Shown: positions 54,105 through 62,218 of the stretch, in pieces | How the letters are laid out: each line of letters begins with the position of its first letter | Numbering within the stretch: position 1 is the stretch's first letter | Assembly: GCA_017396395.1 (NCBI GenBank) | Contig: JAFQMF010000013.1 | Coordinates: 41,161-105,160 of the forward strand | Length of the DNA stretch: 64,000 nt | Direction of reading: 5' to 3' | DNA from: Clostridia bacterium | GTDB taxonomy: Bacteria; Bacillota; Clostridia; RUG12999 | The notes under the pieces: generated by a model | Seen by the model: only the letters and a program-made list of their open reading frames with translations | What the model was told of the DNA's origin: nothing | Database searches by the model: none | Made by a program: the position numbers and the translations under genes

Positions 54105-54352
54105 AATAAAAAATAGTCGTATAAGCTACGACTATCATTACTTTTCTATTATACCCCTTAATGACAGGGGGAATATTTTCAAAAAGTAAGATAGCTCTCC
54201 GCTTAAAGCGACAACAAAGTAAATATTATTTTACTTTGCCAGATCAGACTTACGCCTCGCCTGTCTTCGGCACCTGTACCTTTCTTTACCGCTGACTTTT
54301 GCGAAAGCCCTTTTATAGCGGAAATACTATTTACAAAATGCACCTCTATCAC
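54105..54352 (-). promoter_or_regulatory. lysine riboswitch (L-box) with intrinsic terminator, leader of dapA-dapB-lysA
   Basis: on the minus strand: GATAGAGGTGC P1 start; conserved GGTGCCGAAG; closing GGAGAGCTATC; then terminator ATAGTCGTAGCTTATACGACTAT plus TTTTTTATT immediately before the dapA RBS. Confidence 0.7.
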
Positions 54353-54396
54353 TTTCTATATAATACCATATTTTTTTCTTTTTGTCAACTGTTTTA

Positions 54397-54723
54397 TTAC
54401 TGCAAGGCAATCTTTCCCCGCACTTTAAGCACGCATCCTTCTAAGGTTATCTGTGGAGAAGCATCAAGTCTTACTGTAATATTTGTTTTAGATATCCCTG
54501 TAAATATTCCAACGCCATATCCTTCTACAGTTTTTCTTCTTTCTTTTTTATTATAATATCTGATGCGTATGCCATAGTTTGCTTTTACCATACCTACACC
54601 ATTTAAAGTTCCGTAGGATATTCCTCTGTTAAAGAAAATAACCTGCTCAATTCTTTTTATATCAGGAATAACAAAAATGTCGTTTATGTATCTGTATATT
54701 TCAGGCTCTTTCTGCATATGCAT
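54397..54723 (-). CDS. hypothetical small protein (108 aa), downstream partner of DUF11 gene
   Basis: ORF with plausible coding composition; no recognised motif. Confidence 0.55.
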   Translation of the reverse strand: MHMQKEPEIYRYINDIFVIPDIKRIEQVIFFNRGISYGTLNGVGMVKANYGIRIRYYNKKERRKTVEGYGVGIFTGISKTNITVRLDASPQITLEGCVLKVRGKIALQ

Positions 54724-54786
54724 CCCCCCTTTTATTTAATAATATGTATTTACCCCCTCAAAAATGAGGGGGGTAAAGTTAAAAAA

Positions 54787-55641
54787 TCAAATTGTTCCTG
54801 TAATTGTAAGAGTTGCTGTGCCCGGTGTAACTATAAACTGTCCTGTTACATTTGACTGTGTAACAGTTGCAGCAGGCACTGTAATCTGACCTGGAACTGT
54901 TGCAAATTCACCTGTAGTCACAGCATAAGTGTAATTTGTATTAAGTCCCCATAGAGTACCATTGTAAGTTACTATAAGCTCTGTAAGTGCAGGATTTAAA
55001 ATGTCTGTAATCTGTATAGCATCCTCTGCATCTGCAACCGTTGTACTGTTGTTTACAATAGTAAAGGTATAGGTTATCTGCTGACCATCAATAACAGTAG
55101 TAGGTGTAAGAGCTTTTACAAGACTAAGGTCTGGCTCTGTTGTTACATTGATAGTTTCGTCTGCAACAACAGCAGGACTAAGACCTGTAGCAAAAATTGT
55201 AACTTGGTTACGGATAGTTCCTCCTACTGCAACAGGAGCAAATTCATTAGCAGTAGCTGTATATGCCACAATTGCATTTCCACCTGCGGGAATTGTAATA
55301 TTACTGATAGTAAGGGGTGGTCCTCCTGCTATCGTAACATTTGTCTGACGAACACCATTTACAAATACACTTGCTGTTTCATCTACATAGGTGAGAGGAA
55401 CTAAGTCCTCAGTGCCAAAGGTGTAAGCACCAAGGTCATCTGTTACTGTAATATCATTATAATCAGTAGTACCTGTGTTTAATATACTTACTATAAAAGT
55501 TATATTATCACCCTGATTGTAAGTGCTTTTTAAAGCGGATTTTGTAACAGAAATATCCTGGACAATAGTACCTGTTACAATGTTGGATAATACATTACCG
55601 CCTGTATAGGTTAAGTTAGCCTGGTTAGTAAAGGTTGCCAA
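54787..55641 (-). CDS. leaderless two-repeat DUF11-like (conserved repeat domain) Thr/Asn/Val-rich protein, possible spore-surface protein
   Basis: two repeats of the form ...KS.L....Y..GD.ITF.V...NTG...NDITVTD.L (ISVTKSALKSTYNQGDNITFIVSILNTGTTDYNDITVTD and LSLVKALTPTTVIDGQQITYTFTIVNNSTTVADAEDAIQITDIL); no signal peptide; TTG start 10 nt after AAGGAGG. Confidence 0.72.
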   Translation of the reverse strand: MATFTNQANLTYTGGNVLSNIVTGTIVQDISVTKSALKSTYNQGDNITFIVSILNTGTTDYNDITVTDDLGAYTFGTEDLVPLTYVDETASVFVNGVRQTNVTIAGGPPLTISNITIPAGGNAIVAYTATANEFAPVAVGGTIRNQVTIFATGLSPAVVADETINVTTEPDLSLVKALTPTTVIDGQQITYTFTIVNNSTTVADAEDAIQITDILNPALTELIVTYNGTLWGLNTNYTYAVTTGEFATVPGQITVPAATVTQSNVTGQFIVTPGTATLTITGTI

Positions 55642-55762
55642 TTTACATTTACCTCCTTTTTATATTTACGGGGATTTTCCCCCTTATTTATAATATTAAA
55701 TTTACAGGTAAAAAGTTCCTCAAATTTTTTTAAAAAAATATTGATATTTTTTTAAAAAGGTA

Positions 55763-55791
55763 TTGACAAACTTTTTTATACGTGGTATAAT
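55763..55791 (+). promoter_or_regulatory. consensus sigma-A promoter (TTGACA-17-TATAAT) of tRNA-Thr/tRNA-Tyr operon
   Basis: perfect hexamers with 17-nt spacer, 33 nt upstream of tRNA-Thr. Confidence 0.65.
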
Positions 55792-55824: not shown

Positions 55825-55900
55825 GCTGGTGTAGCTCAATTGGTAGAGCAGCTGATTTGTAATCAGCAGGTCGCGGGTTCGAGTCCCATCACCAGCTCCA
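55825..55900 (+). tRNA. tRNA-Thr (anticodon UGU)
   Basis: GCTGGTG acceptor pairing with CACCAGC; GCTCAATTGGTAGAGC D-arm; anticodon loop TTTGTAA; GGTTCGAGTCC T-arm; encoded CCA. Confidence 0.85.
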
Positions 55901-55922
55901 ATTTTTTGTTCAAATTTAATAT

Positions 55923-56007
55923 GGAGAGGTTCCCGAGTGGCCAAAGGGGACAGACTGTAAATCTGCTGCTTATTGCTTCGGTGGTTCGAATCCACCCCTC
56001 TCCACCA
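55923..56007 (+). tRNA. tRNA-Tyr (anticodon GUA), long variable arm
   Basis: GGAGAGG/CCTCTCC acceptor; anticodon loop CTGTAAA; 13-nt variable arm; GGTGGTTCGAATCCACC T-arm; encoded CCA; 85 nt like Bacillus tRNA-Tyr. Confidence 0.88.
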
Positions 56008-56200: not shown

Positions 56201-56330
56201 AACATTGTCATCCAAACCATTCTGTTCTTCCAGAAAAAGTAAAACTTAAAACTCGCACCTTTAAATATAATCAGTCCCGAACACAAATGTGTTCGGGACT
56301 TTACTTTTTCAGCTATAAGCTTATTAAAGA

Positions 56331-57923: not shown

Positions 57924-58364
57924 ATGAATGATGAACAATACAGCAAAATTGTAAATAATTATGCTCCTTCCTCTCCTCTTTTTACAGATATGCTTAAAGC
58001 GTTTTTTGCAGGGGGGATTTTGTGCCTGTTAGGGGAATTTTTCAGAAGTTTTCTGATTTCTGCGGATTTTTCCGTTACCACAGCCTCTACATGGGTTTCT
58101 ATAATGGTAATTATTATAGCTCAAATACTGTCAGGGTTTGGAATATATGAAAAAGCTGCAAAGTATGCAGGTGCGGGTTTTAGTGTGCCTATTTCAGGCT
58201 TTGCAAACTCTGTTGTTTCCCCTGCTATTGAATATCACACAGAAGGACTTATTCTTGGACTTGGTGCAAAGCTGTTTACAATTGCAGGTCCAGTAATTGT
58301 ATATGGAATTACTTCCTCTGTGGCGGCAGGAATAATTTATTATATAGGAGGGCTATTAAAATGA
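57924..58364 (+). CDS. spoVAC: stage V sporulation protein AC
   Basis: SpoVAC/SpoVAEB family membrane protein; 4-bp overlap with the following spoVAD. Confidence 0.88.
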   Translation: MNDEQYSKIVNNYAPSSPLFTDMLKAFFAGGILCLLGEFFRSFLISADFSVTTASTWVSIMVIIIAQILSGFGIYEKAAKYAGAGFSVPISGFANSVVSPAIEYHTEGLILGLGAKLFTIAGPVIVYGITSSVAAGIIYYIGGLLK

Positions 58365-59380
58365 CAAAAAAAACAGGTAAGCAAACAATAATTTTTAATA
58401 ATCCGCCTCATATTCTCTCCTATGTGGCGGTAGGCGGTAAGGAGGAGGCAAAAGGACCTCTGGGCAAGCATTTTGATACCATTTTCCCTGATCCCTACTT
58501 AGGCGAAGCAAGCTGGGAAAAAGCCGAGTGTAAGCTTCAATATTCTGCAGTAAAAACCTTGCTTGAAAAATCAAACTATCTGCCACAGGACATTGACATT
58601 ATGTTCGGAGGTGATCTTATAAACCAATGTACAAGCTCATATTTCGCTGCACGTGATTTACAGATTCCTCTGTATGGAATATACGGAGCCTGCTCCACTA
58701 TGGCTGAAGCTCTTCATTTAGGCTGTATGGCAATAGAGGGAGATTTTGCAGAAAATATTATTGCTGTTACCTCAAGTCACTTCTGTTCCTCTGAAAAACA
58801 GTTTCGGTTTCCTCTTGAATACGGCGGTCAGCGACCTCCTACTTCCCAGTGGACTGTAACAGCCTCAGGAGCAGTTCTTGTTACTAAAGAAACGGGTGAT
58901 ATTATAATTGATAAAATTACCACAGGGAAAATTGTTGATAAGGGTATTACGGATGCCAATAATATGGGGGCGGCGATGGCCCCTGCAGCGGCAGATACAA
59001 TTAAAACTCATTTTGAGGATACCAAACTCGACTACGATTATTACGATTTAATCGTTACAGGGGATTTAGGAAAGCTGGGAAAAACCCTTCTTGACAGACT
59101 TTTAAAAGAAGAAGGGATAGATTTATCAGAGCGTCTTGACGACTGCGGTTGTATGATTTATAACATTGACAAGCAGGACAAACACTGCGGAGGAAGCGGT
59201 TGTGGTTGCAGTGCTTCTGTGCTTGCCTCGTATATTCTCCCAATGGTAAAGGAAGAAAAATTCAAAAAGGTGCTTTTTGTACCCACAGGAGCGTTAATGA
59301 GTCCCCTTACCTGCAAGCAGGGCGAAAGCATTGCAGGAGTGGCTCACGCAGTCAGTATAACAAAAAGGGAGGAAAATTAA
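58361..59380 (+). CDS. spoVAD: stage V sporulation protein AD (thiolase-like fold)
   Basis: SpoVAD pattern LGGKEEAKGPLGKHFD...YGIYGACST; ~339 aa. Confidence 0.9.
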   Translation: MTKKTGKQTIIFNNPPHILSYVAVGGKEEAKGPLGKHFDTIFPDPYLGEASWEKAECKLQYSAVKTLLEKSNYLPQDIDIMFGGDLINQCTSSYFAARDLQIPLYGIYGACSTMAEALHLGCMAIEGDFAENIIAVTSSHFCSSEKQFRFPLEYGGQRPPTSQWTVTASGAVLVTKETGDIIIDKITTGKIVDKGITDANNMGAAMAPAAADTIKTHFEDTKLDYDYYDLIVTGDLGKLGKTLLDRLLKEEGIDLSERLDDCGCMIYNIDKQDKHCGGSGCGCSASVLASYILPMVKEEKFKKVLFVPTGALMSPLTCKQGESIAGVAHAVSITKREEN

Positions 59381-59381
59381 T

Positions 59382-59735
59382 ATGAATTATTTATGGGCGT
59401 TTATTGTAGGCGGACTGCTTTGTGCTATCGGTCAGCTACTGATAGATAAAACAAAGCTTACTCCTGCCAGAATTTTAGTTTTTTATGTAATTTCAGGAGT
59501 ATTTTTAACTGTTATTGGCGTATATGCACCTCTTGTAAAGCTGGCAGGGGCAGGAGCAACTCTTCCGCTTACAGGCTTTGGTTATGCCCTTGCAAACGGA
59601 GTTAAAAAAGCAGTGGAAGCTGATGGATTTTTAGGAATATTTACAGGGGGACTTACTGCTACTGCAGGAGGAATTACCGTTGCTGTAGTCTTTGGTTTTA
59701 TAATTGCTCTTATTTTCCGACCTCGTGAAAAATAG
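59382..59735 (+). CDS. spoVAE: stage V sporulation protein AE (SpoVAEB-type)
   Basis: 117-aa membrane protein homologous to SpoVAC, directly following spoVAD. Confidence 0.85.
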   Translation: MNYLWAFIVGGLLCAIGQLLIDKTKLTPARILVFYVISGVFLTVIGVYAPLVKLAGAGATLPLTGFGYALANGVKKAVEADGFLGIFTGGLTATAGGITVAVVFGFIIALIFRPREK

Positions 59736-60697: not shown

Positions 60698-62218
60698 TTA
60701 CTTTTTAGGTATAAGAAGCATCATACCTTCTTTAATATTATCTCCGTCAATTTTATTAATCTGCTCAATATCTGAGATTTTACTGTGGTATCTTTTTGCA
60801 ATATTCCAGATATCGTCACCCTTTTGCACAAAATAAAGTACCACAACCGGAATATCCTTTTCCTCTTCTTCCGTTGCGGAAATATCTGTTACAACAGATA
60901 CTTTTTCCTCTTTTTCTGTCATAGTTATAAGGTTAATATTTCCCCGAAGTTCAATATTTCTTCCGCTGATTGAACAGTCGGCTTTTTCTCCTTCAACGCT
61001 TTTTACCATAACCTTACAGCCTTCCTCAACACTCTCTCCTGATATATTGGAAAAAGGAATTTCAAAAACGGCGGTTTGTACTCCCGAATCTTCTTTATCC
61101 GAAATATATGTAAGTGTACAGATAGCTGAGCCTTCTGTTTTAATATTCCCCTTTTCTGCCTTGCAGGAATTTATATGAGGCTTCATAGAAAGCTTATATA
61201 TTTTGGATATTTCCGGCATATCATCAGCTAAAGTTACAATTTCTCTTATTTCCACCTTTGAGCTGTAGGGCATACCTTTGTTTTTAAGAGAAATATTTCC
61301 TGTGGTGGGAGTAATACAGCATTTTGTTCCGTAAATATCACAAGGAGCAGTAAAGCTAACCTTTTCACCTGCGGTAATCTGAATTTTAATATTAACATCA
61401 AATTTAACTTCTCTGCCCTTTTCTGTATCAGCAATACTGCCGGAGGTATTTCCCACAAAAAACTTGATGTCATAGCTCATTTTTTCATTTATGCCATCTG
61501 CTGATTGTATTTCTGTAAAAGGAATTACTGTCTTTTCACATAATGGTCTGTCCTCGCTGTCAGAAAATAAAGCAAAAACTGTTATTTCCCCTTTTGCTAC
61601 AACCTTATTGGAGATTACTTTAATATCCCGAGAGGTTATTTCCGCATCTAATTTTAAAAGAGTTTCACCCCCTGAAGGCACCGGCATACTATTTGATATA
61701 TTGAAAAAACCCTGTGTAAATACAGTTGTATTTTCACCTTGCATAGTCTTTTCTCGTGTTTGTACATCCTCACCCTTTACTTCGCTTACATACTGAATTT
61801 CTCTTTTGCCTGCAAGAGAAAAATCCGACTCTGTAATAGCTTTAAGACTGATTTTTCTGCTGTTTAAAAGCTGAATCTCCATATGAGTAACCTCGCTTTG
61901 GGAGCTTACCATCATACCTTCCTTTGCATCTTTAACATTTTCACTGCAGGTAAAGGGCATTTCTCCGCTGATGCTTTTTACTCCCTTTGCATTATCCGGC
62001 ACATATAAAAGGTTATATACCACCTTTCCACGCACCGATACTTTTCCTGAAGTTACCGTTACTCCTTCGGTAATTGCTCTGCCTTCAGCCTGAAGTACTT
62101 TTAACGCATCAGGCATACTGTCCGGAACAATAATATCTGTCTGACACACGCTCTGACAGCTTCCTTCATAAACAGCTTCGTTAATTACAATGCTTGATTT
62201 CTTTATTTCGGGTAACAT
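60698..62218 (-). CDS. SipL-like spore morphogenetic protein (DUF3794/SPOCS repeats plus C-terminal LysM)
   Basis: C-terminal LysM YFVQKGDDIWNIAKRYHSKISDIEQINKIDGDNIKEGMMLLIP; N-terminal region with repeated beta-rich DUF3794-like segments. Confidence 0.65.
   Translation of the reverse strand: MLPEIKKSSIVINEAVYEGSCQSVCQTDIIVPDSMPDALKVLQAEGRAITEGVTVTSGKVSVRGKVVYNLLYVPDNAKGVKSISGEMPFTCSENVKDAKEGMMVSSQSEVTHMEIQLLNSRKISLKAITESDFSLAGKREIQYVSEVKGEDVQTREKTMQGENTTVFTQGFFNISNSMPVPSGGETLLKLDAEITSRDIKVISNKVVAKGEITVFALFSDSEDRPLCEKTVIPFTEIQSADGINEKMSYDIKFFVGNTSGSIADTEKGREVKFDVNIKIQITAGEKVSFTAPCDIYGTKCCITPTTGNISLKNKGMPYSSKVEIREIVTLADDMPEISKIYKLSMKPHINSCKAEKGNIKTEGSAICTLTYISDKEDSGVQTAVFEIPFSNISGESVEEGCKVMVKSVEGEKADCSISGRNIELRGNINLITMTEKEEKVSVVTDISATEEEEKDIPVVVLYFVQKGDDIWNIAKRYHSKISDIEQINKIDGDNIKEGMMLLIPKK

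What the first reader, a model, noticed from the sequence alone, without database searches (positions are those of the whole stretch)
54397..55641. Leaderless DUF11-like two-repeat protein plus small ORF wedged between the L-box/dap operon and the tRNA operon
The 284-aa product is Thr/Asn/Val-rich. It carries two copies of the conserved repeat domain pattern (…KS.L….Y..GD.ITF.V...NTG...NDITVTD.L… and …LVKALTPTTVIDGQQITYTFTIVNNSTTVADAED.IQITDIL…). It has no signal peptide. It starts at TTG behind a strong AAGGAGG, with an ATG-TAA mini-ORF (55645-55650) between RBS and start. That is the profile of proteins assembled onto spores in the mother cell (exosporium, appendage or coat) rather than exported by Sec. 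A 108-aa unknown protein follows with a 63-bp gap. The pair has no obvious functional relation to its neighbours.
Basis: partly seen in the sequence, partly recalled or inferred. Interest (0 to 1): 0.5.

Follow-up and report, generated by a model that had tools for sequence, protein, structure and literature searches.

The report
Leaderless isopeptide Ig protein, probable spore-surface component
This gene encodes a very stable two-domain protein without an export signal, conserved in hundreds of gut Clostridia species behind a late-sporulation-type promoter, so it is probably an uncharacterised spore-surface building block, and the small gene next to it is unrelated.

Summary
Both ORFs exist as described: 284 aa (54787-55641, minus strand, TTG start) and 108 aa (54397-54723), 63 bp apart. 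The 284-aa protein passes Pfam DUF11 (now called CLIPPER, a CnaA-like Ig domain with an internal Lys-Asn isopeptide bond). It belongs to an unnamed family of more than 3,000 clusters in at least 560 GTDB species, nearly all 282-285 aa long. Domain 1 has an invariant K34/D68/N145 triad. Domain 2 keeps K176 and D213 but has no Asn strand of its own. An invariant N-terminal beta-hairpin (N6) appears to supply that strand. AlphaFold2 orders the hairpin only when domain 2 is present. Three quarters of members have exactly two lysines, the two triad ones. In related loci the gene stands alone in unrelated neighbourhoods. It has a conserved sigma-K-type promoter (AC-N17-CATAnnnT; 40 of 73 loci against 1.8% of controls), a 5' hairpin and a 3' hairpin. 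The 108-aa ORF is not a partner: its three remote homologues were found without an adjacent DUF11 gene, and two sit just upstream of a lysine riboswitch and dapA. The ATG-TAA mini-ORF is not conserved. Whether the hairpin closes the monomer or links subunits into a covalent fibre is open.

The parts
54787..55641 (-). ORF of 284 aa with a TTG start. It encodes a leaderless two-domain CLIPPER/DUF11 protein.
   Evidence: The start is confirmed by alignment with homologues.
55558..55641 (-). Codons 1-28: the N-terminal beta-hairpin (strands 2-12 and 15-26) with invariant N6, S19, N20 and G24. It is proposed to be the missing Asn-bearing strand pair of domain 2.
   Evidence: the Pfam profile places N6 in the same column as N145; the hairpin loses order when domain 2 is absent.
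55141..55557 (-). Codons 29-167: domain 1, a complete CLIPPER fold with the invariant triad K34 / D68 / N145.
54790..55140 (-). Codons 168-284: domain 2, with K176 and D213 conserved. It matches only positions 1-73 of the 114-position DUF11 profile and has no conserved Asn strand at its C-terminal end.
55689..55716 (-). Putative sigma-K-type promoter: AC (55716-55715), 17 nt, then AATATTATA (55697-55689). The first base of the -10 element is A, where most homologues have C.
   Evidence: One search found no sigma-70-like site on this strand in the intergenic region.
55670..55683 (-). Stem-loop GGGGGAAAATCCCC in the 5' leader, just after the -10 element. Its position and structure are conserved across the family, but its sequence is not.
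   Evidence: window z -5.3; family mean z -2.5.
55652..55658 (-). Shine-Dalgarno sequence AAGGAGG, 10 nt upstream of the TTG.
55643..55648 (-). ATG-TAA start-stop between the SD and the TTG. It is not conserved, lies 3 nt from the SD, and is probably incidental.
54749..54777 (-). Stem-loop 3' of the stop codon (-17 kcal/mol), a likely terminator or 3' stabiliser. It lacks a clean U-tract.
   Evidence: window z -3.8; family mean z -4.65.
54397..54723 (-). Small ORF of 108 aa (106 aa from the second ATG). It looks like a real gene of a very rare family and is not part of the DUF11 unit. Its conserved neighbour is the lysine riboswitch and dapA.

Best explanation
The 284-aa gene is a stand-alone, single-gene unit. 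It is probably transcribed late in sporulation in the mother cell from a sigma-K-type promoter. Its mRNA is framed by a 5' and a 3' stem-loop, which suggests a stable, highly expressed message. The product folds in the cytoplasm without export and consists of two CLIPPER (DUF11, CnaA-like) Ig domains.

Domain 1 is stapled by a spontaneous K34-N145 isopeptide bond catalysed by D68. Domain 2 has the Lys (K176) and the Asp (D213) but lacks the last two strands of the fold. These strands sit at the N terminus of the chain as a beta-hairpin that carries N6. The hairpin docks onto domain 2, and K176-N6 then locks it. In the AlphaFold2 monomer model this happens within one chain, giving a covalently closed and very compact two-domain block.

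The protein has almost no Lys, Arg, His, Cys or Met outside the two stapling lysines, so it should resist trypsin-like proteases, heat and oxidation. It is most likely deposited as a structural component of the outer spore layers (coat, exosporium or appendage).

Shown here: the domain family, the fold, the invariant residues, the dependence of the hairpin on domain 2 in the model, the promoter motif and the lack of conserved neighbours. Inferred: that the bonds form, when the gene is expressed, and that the protein ends up on the spore.

For: K34, D68, N145, D213 and N20 are invariant in 236 distinct sequences, and K176 is present in 235 of 236. Of these, 178 have exactly two Lys. N6 is invariant in 118 sequences that were not selected on that residue.

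The AF2 model of the full protein has pLDDT 94.8. Without domain 2, hairpin pLDDT falls from 85/92/83 to 52/50/64 while domain 1 stays at 95-98. Domain 2 alone matches DUF11 profile positions 1-73. Appending the hairpin extends the match to position 98, with N6 in the same column as N145.

Promoter motif: 66 of 73 loci against 4.4% of controls, and 40 of 73 against 1.8% for the full pattern, at the spacing of the published sigma-K consensus mACm-N16-CATA-N3-TA (PMC5749712). The 5' and 3' hairpins are conserved. Neighbourhoods vary and no prophage context was seen. spoVA and SipL genes lie within 10 kb. P29a/b of C. taeniosporum give a precedent.
Against: There are no expression or localisation data. 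This window's own -10 element starts with A rather than the near-universal C. A promoter motif does not prove which sigma factor is used, and sigma-E and sigma-K -10 elements resemble each other.

Sequence support for equating N6 with N145 is weak: +1.1 bits against -1.2 bits for a shuffled hairpin, and hhalign E 0.18. Model coordinates could not be inspected, so the K176-N6 distance was not measured, and N20 is an alternative partner. Typical CLIPPER proteins are long, secreted adhesins. No collagen-like or glycosyltransferase partner gene was found nearby.
Confidence: 0.55

Rival explanations
1. The protein has the same parts but assembles in trans. The N-terminal hairpin of one subunit completes domain 2 of the next, and K176-N6 locks them together. 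This would give a sortase-independent, covalently linked bead-on-string fibre on the spore, an 'exchange and lock' mechanism.
For: The chain reads like a two-domain window cut out of a tandem CLIPPER array but offset by two strands. N6-to-K34 spacing is 28 residues and N145-to-K176 spacing is 31. The hairpin is therefore joined to domain 1 in the same way that domain 1's own last strands are joined to domain 2. The hairpin is not part of domain 1. Precedents exist: BsaA of C. perfringens, archaeal threads (PMC9715654, title and abstract listing) and autocatalytic isopeptide A-ENA spore fibres. Length is conserved very tightly at 282-285 aa.
Against: AlphaFold2 places the hairpin on domain 2 within a single chain with pLDDT 83-92, so closure in cis is sterically possible and entropically favoured. 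No multimer model could be run. No cap or anchor paralogue was seen; 80 of 81 loci carry a single copy.
Confidence: 0.3
2. It is a vegetative cell-surface or matrix protein (an adhesin stalk fragment) released by lysis or by a non-classical route, with no link to sporulation.
For: Most CLIPPER/DUF11 proteins are surface adhesins. The promoter assignment rests on a motif only.
Against: There is no signal peptide, no LPXTG motif and no adhesive domain. No sigma-70-like promoter lies on the coding strand upstream. The sigma-K-type motif is conserved across the family. The family was found almost only in Clostridia.
Confidence: 0.1
3. It is a prophage or mobile-element Ig-like decoration protein that has landed in different places in different genomes.
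For: Genomic neighbourhoods differ between species. Ig-like domains are common on phage particles.
Against: There is no significant PHROGs hit (best E 0.027). The flanking genes are housekeeping genes such as gdh, dap, carB, clpC and opp, with no phage genes. The gene is single-copy and its own promoter architecture is conserved.
Confidence: 0.03

Closest known systems
CLIPPER / DUF11 domain (Pfam PF01345; crystal structure 9IFR from an Acinetobacter silvestris fibrillar adhesin)
   Different: Known members are tandem stalk repeats in long, secreted, anchored adhesins. This protein has no leader, only two domains, and a second domain whose Asn-bearing strands appear to be moved to the N terminus.
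P29a/P29b, major proteins of the ribbon-like spore appendages of Clostridium taeniosporum (PMC5749712)
   Same: They are of similar size (269 aa against 284 aa). They have a short N-terminal segment followed by two DUF11-containing internal repeats, and putative sigma-K promoters. They are made in the mother cell.
   Different: The P29 genes lie in a cluster with collagen-like GP85/CL2 and CRD genes, and no such neighbours occur here.
Gram-positive sortase pilins with intramolecular isopeptide bonds (RrgB, BcpA, EbpB, SpaA, CppA)
   Different: Pilins have a signal peptide, an LPXTG sorting signal and a pilin-motif lysine, and they need a sortase. None of these is present here.
'Exchange and lock' polymers: C. 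perfringens BsaA (bioRxiv 10.1101/2024.11.04.621531) and Sulfolobus thread filaments (PMC9715654)
   Same: An N-terminal strand inserts into an incomplete beta-sandwich and is fixed by an isopeptide bond.
   Different: Those are secreted TasA-like or thread subunits of a different fold family. Here, intermolecular insertion is only a possibility.
Endospore appendages of Bacillus and Clostridia (S/L-ENA, F-ENA DUF4183, A-ENA; PMC12357932, PMC13111695)
   Same: They are leaderless subunits that self-assemble in the mother cell, have N-terminal connector or hook peptides, are covalently reinforced and are extremely robust. DUF11 domains also occur in the F-Anchor-3 protein of C. aceticum.
   Different: There is no sequence match to DUF4183 or DUF3992. 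The fold is different, and no collagen-like anchor or tip gene lies nearby.

Membership tests
Pfam DUF11 / CLIPPER (PF01345) | HMM score above the gathering cutoff | tested here: met
   37.8 bits against a 24.6-bit cutoff, E 2.6e-9, two stretches.
Pfam DUF11 / CLIPPER (PF01345) | CnaA-like Ig beta-sandwich fold | tested here: met
Pfam DUF11 / CLIPPER (PF01345) | Lys / Asp / Asn isopeptide triad present in the sequence | tested here: met
   In domain 1, K34, D68 and N145 are invariant. In domain 2, K176 and D213 are conserved and the Asn is supplied only by the N-terminal hairpin (N6 or N20).
Pfam DUF11 / CLIPPER (PF01345) | The isopeptide bond actually forms | not testable with these tools
   This needs mass spectrometry or a crystal structure.
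Fibrillar adhesin (the usual setting of CLIPPER domains) | Signal peptide, long tandem stalk, adhesive domain and anchor | tested here: not met
   The protein is 284 aa, has no Lys/Arg or hydrophobic core at the N terminus, has no LPXTG, and has only DUF11-type Pfam hits.
TIGR01451 (B_ant_repeat) | HMM score above the NCBIfam cutoff | tested here: not met
   20.8 bits against a cutoff of 24. JGI nevertheless labels some relatives with this name.
C. taeniosporum P29 appendage proteins | Two DUF11-containing repeats after a short N-terminal segment, in a protein of about 270 aa | tested here: met
   P29 repeats start at residues 22 and 149 of 269 aa. Here the repeats start at about residues 29 and 172 of 284 aa.
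C. taeniosporum P29 appendage proteins | Sigma-K-type promoter | tested here: met
   The family-wide motif is AC-N17-CATAnnnT. In the window itself the motif has one mismatch.
C. taeniosporum P29 appendage proteins | Clustered with genes for collagen-like GP85/CL2 and CRD proteins | tested here: not met
   No conserved neighbour was found in the 82 loci compared (window plus 81 others), and the flanks are housekeeping genes.
C. taeniosporum P29 appendage proteins | Sequence homology to P29a/b | not testable with these tools
   The P29 sequences could not be retrieved.
Sortase-assembled pilins | Signal peptide, LPXTG sorting signal, pilin-motif Lys and an adjacent sortase gene | tested here: not met
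   None of these is in the sequence. The only conserved lysines are the two triad lysines. No sortase gene lies nearby.
ENA families (DUF3992, DUF4183) | Pfam match to the ENA subunit domains | tested here: not met
   Neither family appears among the Pfam hits at E up to 1.
Donor-strand 'exchange and lock' polymers | An incomplete beta-sandwich completed by an N-terminal strand | tested here: inconclusive
   The hairpin depends on domain 2 in AF2 models. Whether it docks in cis or in trans could not be determined.

The most novel reading that the evidence does not exclude
The family may be a natural SpyTag/SpyCatcher-like self-polymerising subunit. The N-terminal hairpin of each 284-aa protein would insert into the incomplete second CLIPPER domain of the next and be locked by an autocatalytic intermolecular K176-N6 isopeptide bond. 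This would build sortase-free covalent fibres on the spores of hundreds of gut Clostridia species. The fibres would be almost invisible to trypsin-based proteomics, because the only lysines are consumed in the bonds.
Probability: 0.3. Interest if true: 0.8.

Novelty: new variant of a known kind. Interest (0 to 1): 0.6.

Why it matters
Spores are how many strictly anaerobic gut commensals (Oscillospiraceae, Acutalibacteraceae, Lachnospiraceae) pass between hosts, yet their spore surfaces are almost unknown at the molecular level. This family is found in at least 560 species genomes, has a highly conserved length and conserved key residues, and carries no functional name in any database consulted here. 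If it is a major outer spore protein, it is a candidate determinant of spore resistance, adhesion and immune recognition.

Its near-absence of Lys and Arg would explain why trypsin-based spore proteomics could have missed it. This is an inference, not a tested result.

The split domain, with the Asn strand moved to the N terminus, is a natural analogue of engineered isopeptide cyclisation or polymerisation tools. It would be of interest for protein engineering whichever way it closes.

Tried and rejected
- **Conserved partner genes.** I clustered all ORFs of 70 aa or more within about 4 kb of the gene in 82 loci. Only antisense shadow ORFs and lineage-specific housekeeping genes recurred.
- **The 108-aa ORF as partner.** Rejected.
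- **Internal repeat by profile comparison.** Only the first 41 columns of the two domains align (E 2.4e-5). Adding the hairpin to domain 2 did not extend that alignment.
- **Hairpin profile against the rest of the protein.** The best match is the N145 strand, but it is not significant (E 0.18).
- **PDB sequence search.** Nothing useful was found.
- **Foldseek against the PDB.** Only generic tandem-Ig hits with TM about 0.4.
- **AFDB fold search.** The library was unavailable.
- **PHROGs.** No hit.
- **Literature.** Searches for the family in spore, appendage or isopeptide papers found no description of it.
- **P29 sequences.** They could not be obtained.
- **Model coordinates.** They are not exposed, so Lys-Asn distances and the relative orientation of the domains could not be measured. 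Multimer prediction was not possible.
- **Names in source databases.** All are 'hypothetical' or 'DUF11 domain-containing'.

Full report
**1. The observation**

The region holds two minus-strand ORFs. One is 284 aa (54787-55641, TTG start) and the other is 108 aa (54397-54723, ATG; 106 aa from the second ATG). They are 63 bp apart.

The larger protein is 20% Thr, 10.6% Val and 7.7% Asn. It has no Cys, no His and no internal Met, and only 3 Lys and 2 Arg. Both quoted repeat motifs are present.

Pfam DUF11 (PF01345) matches at E 2.6e-9 with 37.8 bits against a 24.6-bit cutoff, in two stretches. NCBIfam TIGR01451 stays below its cutoff.

The first 33 residues contain no basic residue and no hydrophobic core, and there is no LPXTG motif. 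By inspection the protein therefore has neither a Sec/Tat leader nor a sortase signal.

The AAGGAGG Shine-Dalgarno sequence (55658-55652) lies 10 nt before the TTG.

The lysine riboswitch (54184-54356) and dapA/dapB lie downstream on the same strand. tRNA-Thr and tRNA-Tyr (55825-56007) are on the opposite strand and diverge from the gene. They have a perfect TTGACA-17-TATAAT promoter.

**2. The family**

A search of 5.8 billion proteins found 3,190 relatives. The best 120 are 49-55% identical to the window protein, and 116 of them are 282-285 aa long. Longer database entries, where checked, are upstream start-codon calls; L050 is an example.

A scan of one genome per GTDB species found at least 560 species with a relative. 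Nearly all are uncultured gut or rumen Clostridia: Oscillospiraceae, Acutalibacteraceae and Lachnospiraceae. One cultured genome also carries it, Anaerotignum sp. MB30-C6.

Every source name is 'hypothetical protein', 'DUF11 domain-containing protein' or 'uncharacterized repeat protein (TIGR01451 family)'. Literature searches found no paper that describes this family.

**3. Anatomy of the protein**

DUF11 was recently renamed CLIPPER. It has been shown to be a CnaA-like Ig domain stapled by an intramolecular Lys-Asn isopeptide bond with a catalytic Asp (K715/D748/N806 in structure 9IFR; bioRxiv 10.1101/2025.04.25.650565).

In 236 distinct family sequences, K34, D68, N145, D213 and N20 are invariant, and K176 is present in 235. 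N6 is invariant in 118 sequences that were not selected on that residue. Of the 236 proteins, 178 contain exactly two lysines, K34 and K176. This is what one expects if the lysines are kept only for the two bonds.

Domain 1 (about residues 29-167) has the full triad, with spacings like those of 9IFR.

Domain 2 (about residues 168-284) has the Lys and the Asp. However, it matches the DUF11 profile only over positions 1-73 of 114, and it has no conserved Asn in its C-terminal part.

The N terminus forms a beta-hairpin (strands 2-12 and 15-26). Its first strand, F.NQATLTYNG, resembles the N145 strand of domain 1, ITNTATVTGGG.

I appended the hairpin to domain 2 and rescanned Pfam. The match then extends to profile position 98, and N6 falls in the same column as N145. 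The gain is +1.1 bits, against -1.2 bits for a shuffled hairpin and +3.1 bits for domain 1's own tail. A profile-profile search of the hairpin against the rest of the protein also picks the N145 strand as its best match, but without significance (E 0.18).

I then modelled residues 1-167 alone, that is the hairpin plus domain 1 without domain 2. Domain 1 kept pLDDT 95-98. The hairpin fell from 85/92/83 to 52/50/64 and lost its strands. In the model, therefore, the hairpin belongs to domain 2 and not to domain 1.

The simplest reading is that domain 2 is a split CLIPPER domain. Its Asn-bearing last strands are encoded at the N terminus, and K176-N6 is the second isopeptide bond. N20 is a less likely partner.

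**4. Cis or trans**

In a single-chain model the hairpin can only dock in cis. AlphaFold2 does this with good confidence, so a covalently closed two-domain monomer is feasible.

The same sequence logic also fits head-to-tail assembly. The hairpin is joined to domain 1 exactly as domain 1's last strands are joined to domain 2. The N6-to-K34 spacing is 28 residues and the N145-to-K176 spacing is 31. The protein therefore reads like a two-domain window cut from a tandem array with a two-strand offset.

Such 'exchange and lock' polymers are known. Examples are BsaA of C. perfringens and the archaeal thread filaments (PMC9715654). Autocatalytic intermolecular isopeptide bonds have also just been described in Bacillus A-ENA spore fibres.

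I could not run multimer predictions or read the model coordinates. I rate cis closure as somewhat more likely than trans assembly, with trans at about 0.3.

**5. Regulation and context**

The neighbourhood is not conserved. In the window the gene lies between gdh plus the tRNA genes and the dap operon. Elsewhere it lies next to clpC/ogt, peptidase, carB or other housekeeping genes. No phage genes or PHROGs hits were seen.

What is conserved is the gene's own frame.

- **-10 element.** In 66 of 73 non-redundant upstream regions there is a CATAnnnT(A/G) element, a median of about 52 nt before the start codon. It occurs in 4.4% of random windows of equal size.
- **-35 element.** Seventeen nucleotides upstream of it, A (53%) and C (68%) are enriched. 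The full AC-N16-18-CATAnnnT pattern occurs in 40 of 73 regions against 1.8% of controls. This is the sigma-K consensus as quoted for clostridial appendage genes, mACm-N16-CATA-N3-TA (PMC5749712).
- **5' stem-loop.** Directly after the -10 element comes a stem-loop conserved in position and structure but not in sequence. Mean z is -2.5, and 73% of regions are below -1.5. An A-rich spacer and a strong SD follow it.
- **3' stem-loop.** Downstream of the stop codon, 74 non-redundant loci have strong hairpins, with mean z -4.65 and median MFE -22.8 kcal/mol.

The window copy follows this plan: AC at 55716-55715, a -10 element at 55697-55689, a 5' hairpin at 55683-55670 and a 3' hairpin at 54777-54749. 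Its -10 element reads AATATTATA, with A in place of the usual C. Two other loci show the same substitution (L024 and L027).

No sigma-70-like site lies on the coding strand in the intergenic region. The same contig carries spoVAC/AD/AEB and a SipL gene within 10 kb, so the organism has sporulation genes.

Together this points to late, mother-cell-specific and probably high expression. That fits a leaderless protein destined for the outer spore layers. It remains a motif-based inference.

**6. The small ORF and the mini-ORF**

The word-indexed search found only the 108-aa ORF itself. An exhaustive phmmer search of 1.84 billion representatives found three remote homologues of 117-122 aa, at 41%, 34% and 29% identity, aligned over their full length.

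Codon usage in frame is positive, at 0.29 against -0.56 and -0.64 in the other frames. It is therefore probably a real gene, but a very rare one.

Two of the homologues lie immediately upstream of a lysine riboswitch and dapA. One follows the rplJ/rplL genes and the other follows a divergently transcribed gene of unknown family. Neither has a DUF11 gene next to it. The third is on a contig of under 1 kb that follows an unrelated gene fragment.

The small ORF therefore travels with the dap operon and not with the DUF11 gene. The two ORFs are neighbours by accident.

The ATG-TAA element lies only 3 nt from the SD and is absent from homologues, of which 74 of 76 have ATG where this gene has TTG. 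I see no reason to give it a function.

**7. Comparison with what is known**

- **Domain family.** The protein is a member of Pfam DUF11/CLIPPER by sequence and by fold.
- **Usual setting.** It does not fit the usual setting of that domain, which is long, secreted fibrillar adhesins. It fails every sortase-pilin criterion.
- **Closest biological precedent.** This is the pair P29a/P29b of C. taeniosporum spore appendages. They are 269 aa long, with two DUF11-containing repeats after about 21 N-terminal residues, and have putative sigma-K promoters. The collagen-like and CRD genes that accompany P29 are missing here. I could not obtain the P29 sequences to test homology.
- **ENA families.** DUF3992 and DUF4183 do not match.
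- **New elements.** These are the split second domain with an N-terminal Asn hairpin, the near-total restriction of lysine to the two triad positions, and the conserved stand-alone sigma-K-type cassette across hundreds of species.

I class it as a new variant of a known kind.

**8. Verdict**

- **Observation:** confirmed, with small corrections.
- **Spore-surface interpretation:** supported indirectly. The supposed gene pair and the mini-ORF are not supported.
- **Confidence:** about 0.55 that this is a late-sporulation, isopeptide-stapled structural protein of the spore surface.
- **Interest:** 0.6. The family is large, unnamed and probably relevant to spore biology in gut anaerobes, and it may embody a natural self-locking Ig module.

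Noticed in passing
window 54397-54723 (-); L088 5001-5366; L091 757-1125: This is a very rare small-protein family, with 4 representatives among 1.84 billion proteins. In the three contexts that could be seen, it sits immediately upstream of a lysine riboswitch and dapA. Its function is unknown. A link to diaminopimelate, lysine or dipicolinate metabolism is conceivable but untested.
   Followed up: partly
window 55763-55791 (+): A perfect sigma-70 consensus promoter (TTGACA-17-TATAAT with an extended TG) drives the divergent tRNA-Thr and tRNA-Tyr genes. It shares the 180-bp intergenic region with the putative sigma-K-type promoter of the DUF11 gene.
   Followed up: no
window 56273-56300: A 12-bp perfect palindromic hairpin, flagged as terminator-like on both strands, lies between tRNA-Tyr and the convergent glutamate dehydrogenase gene. 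It is a likely bidirectional terminator.
   Followed up: no
family-wide: In most members the only lysines are the two predicted isopeptide lysines, and arginine is scarce (median 2). Tryptic digestion would yield very few detectable peptides, so standard spore proteomics may miss this family systematically.
   Followed up: no
L025 (CAVFYN010000212.1): One family member lies on a 6.8-kb contig of a bin labelled Bacteroidaceae. Every other hit is in Clostridia, so this is probably a binning error rather than a genuine occurrence outside the Firmicutes.
   Followed up: no
P0036, P0094, P0127, P0141, P0158; L050 3875-4855: Several database entries of 297-333 aa stand out from the 282-285-aa norm. 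Where checked (P0094, and the 326-aa TTG ORF in L050), the extra length is an upstream start-codon call, and the conserved MA(T)F.NQA start lies inside it. The other entries were not inspected.
   Followed up: partly
window 57924-59735 (+) and 60698-62218 (-): spoVAC, spoVAD and spoVAEB, and a SipL-like LysM protein, lie within 7 kb of the finding. This shows the genome encodes sporulation functions.
   Followed up: partly
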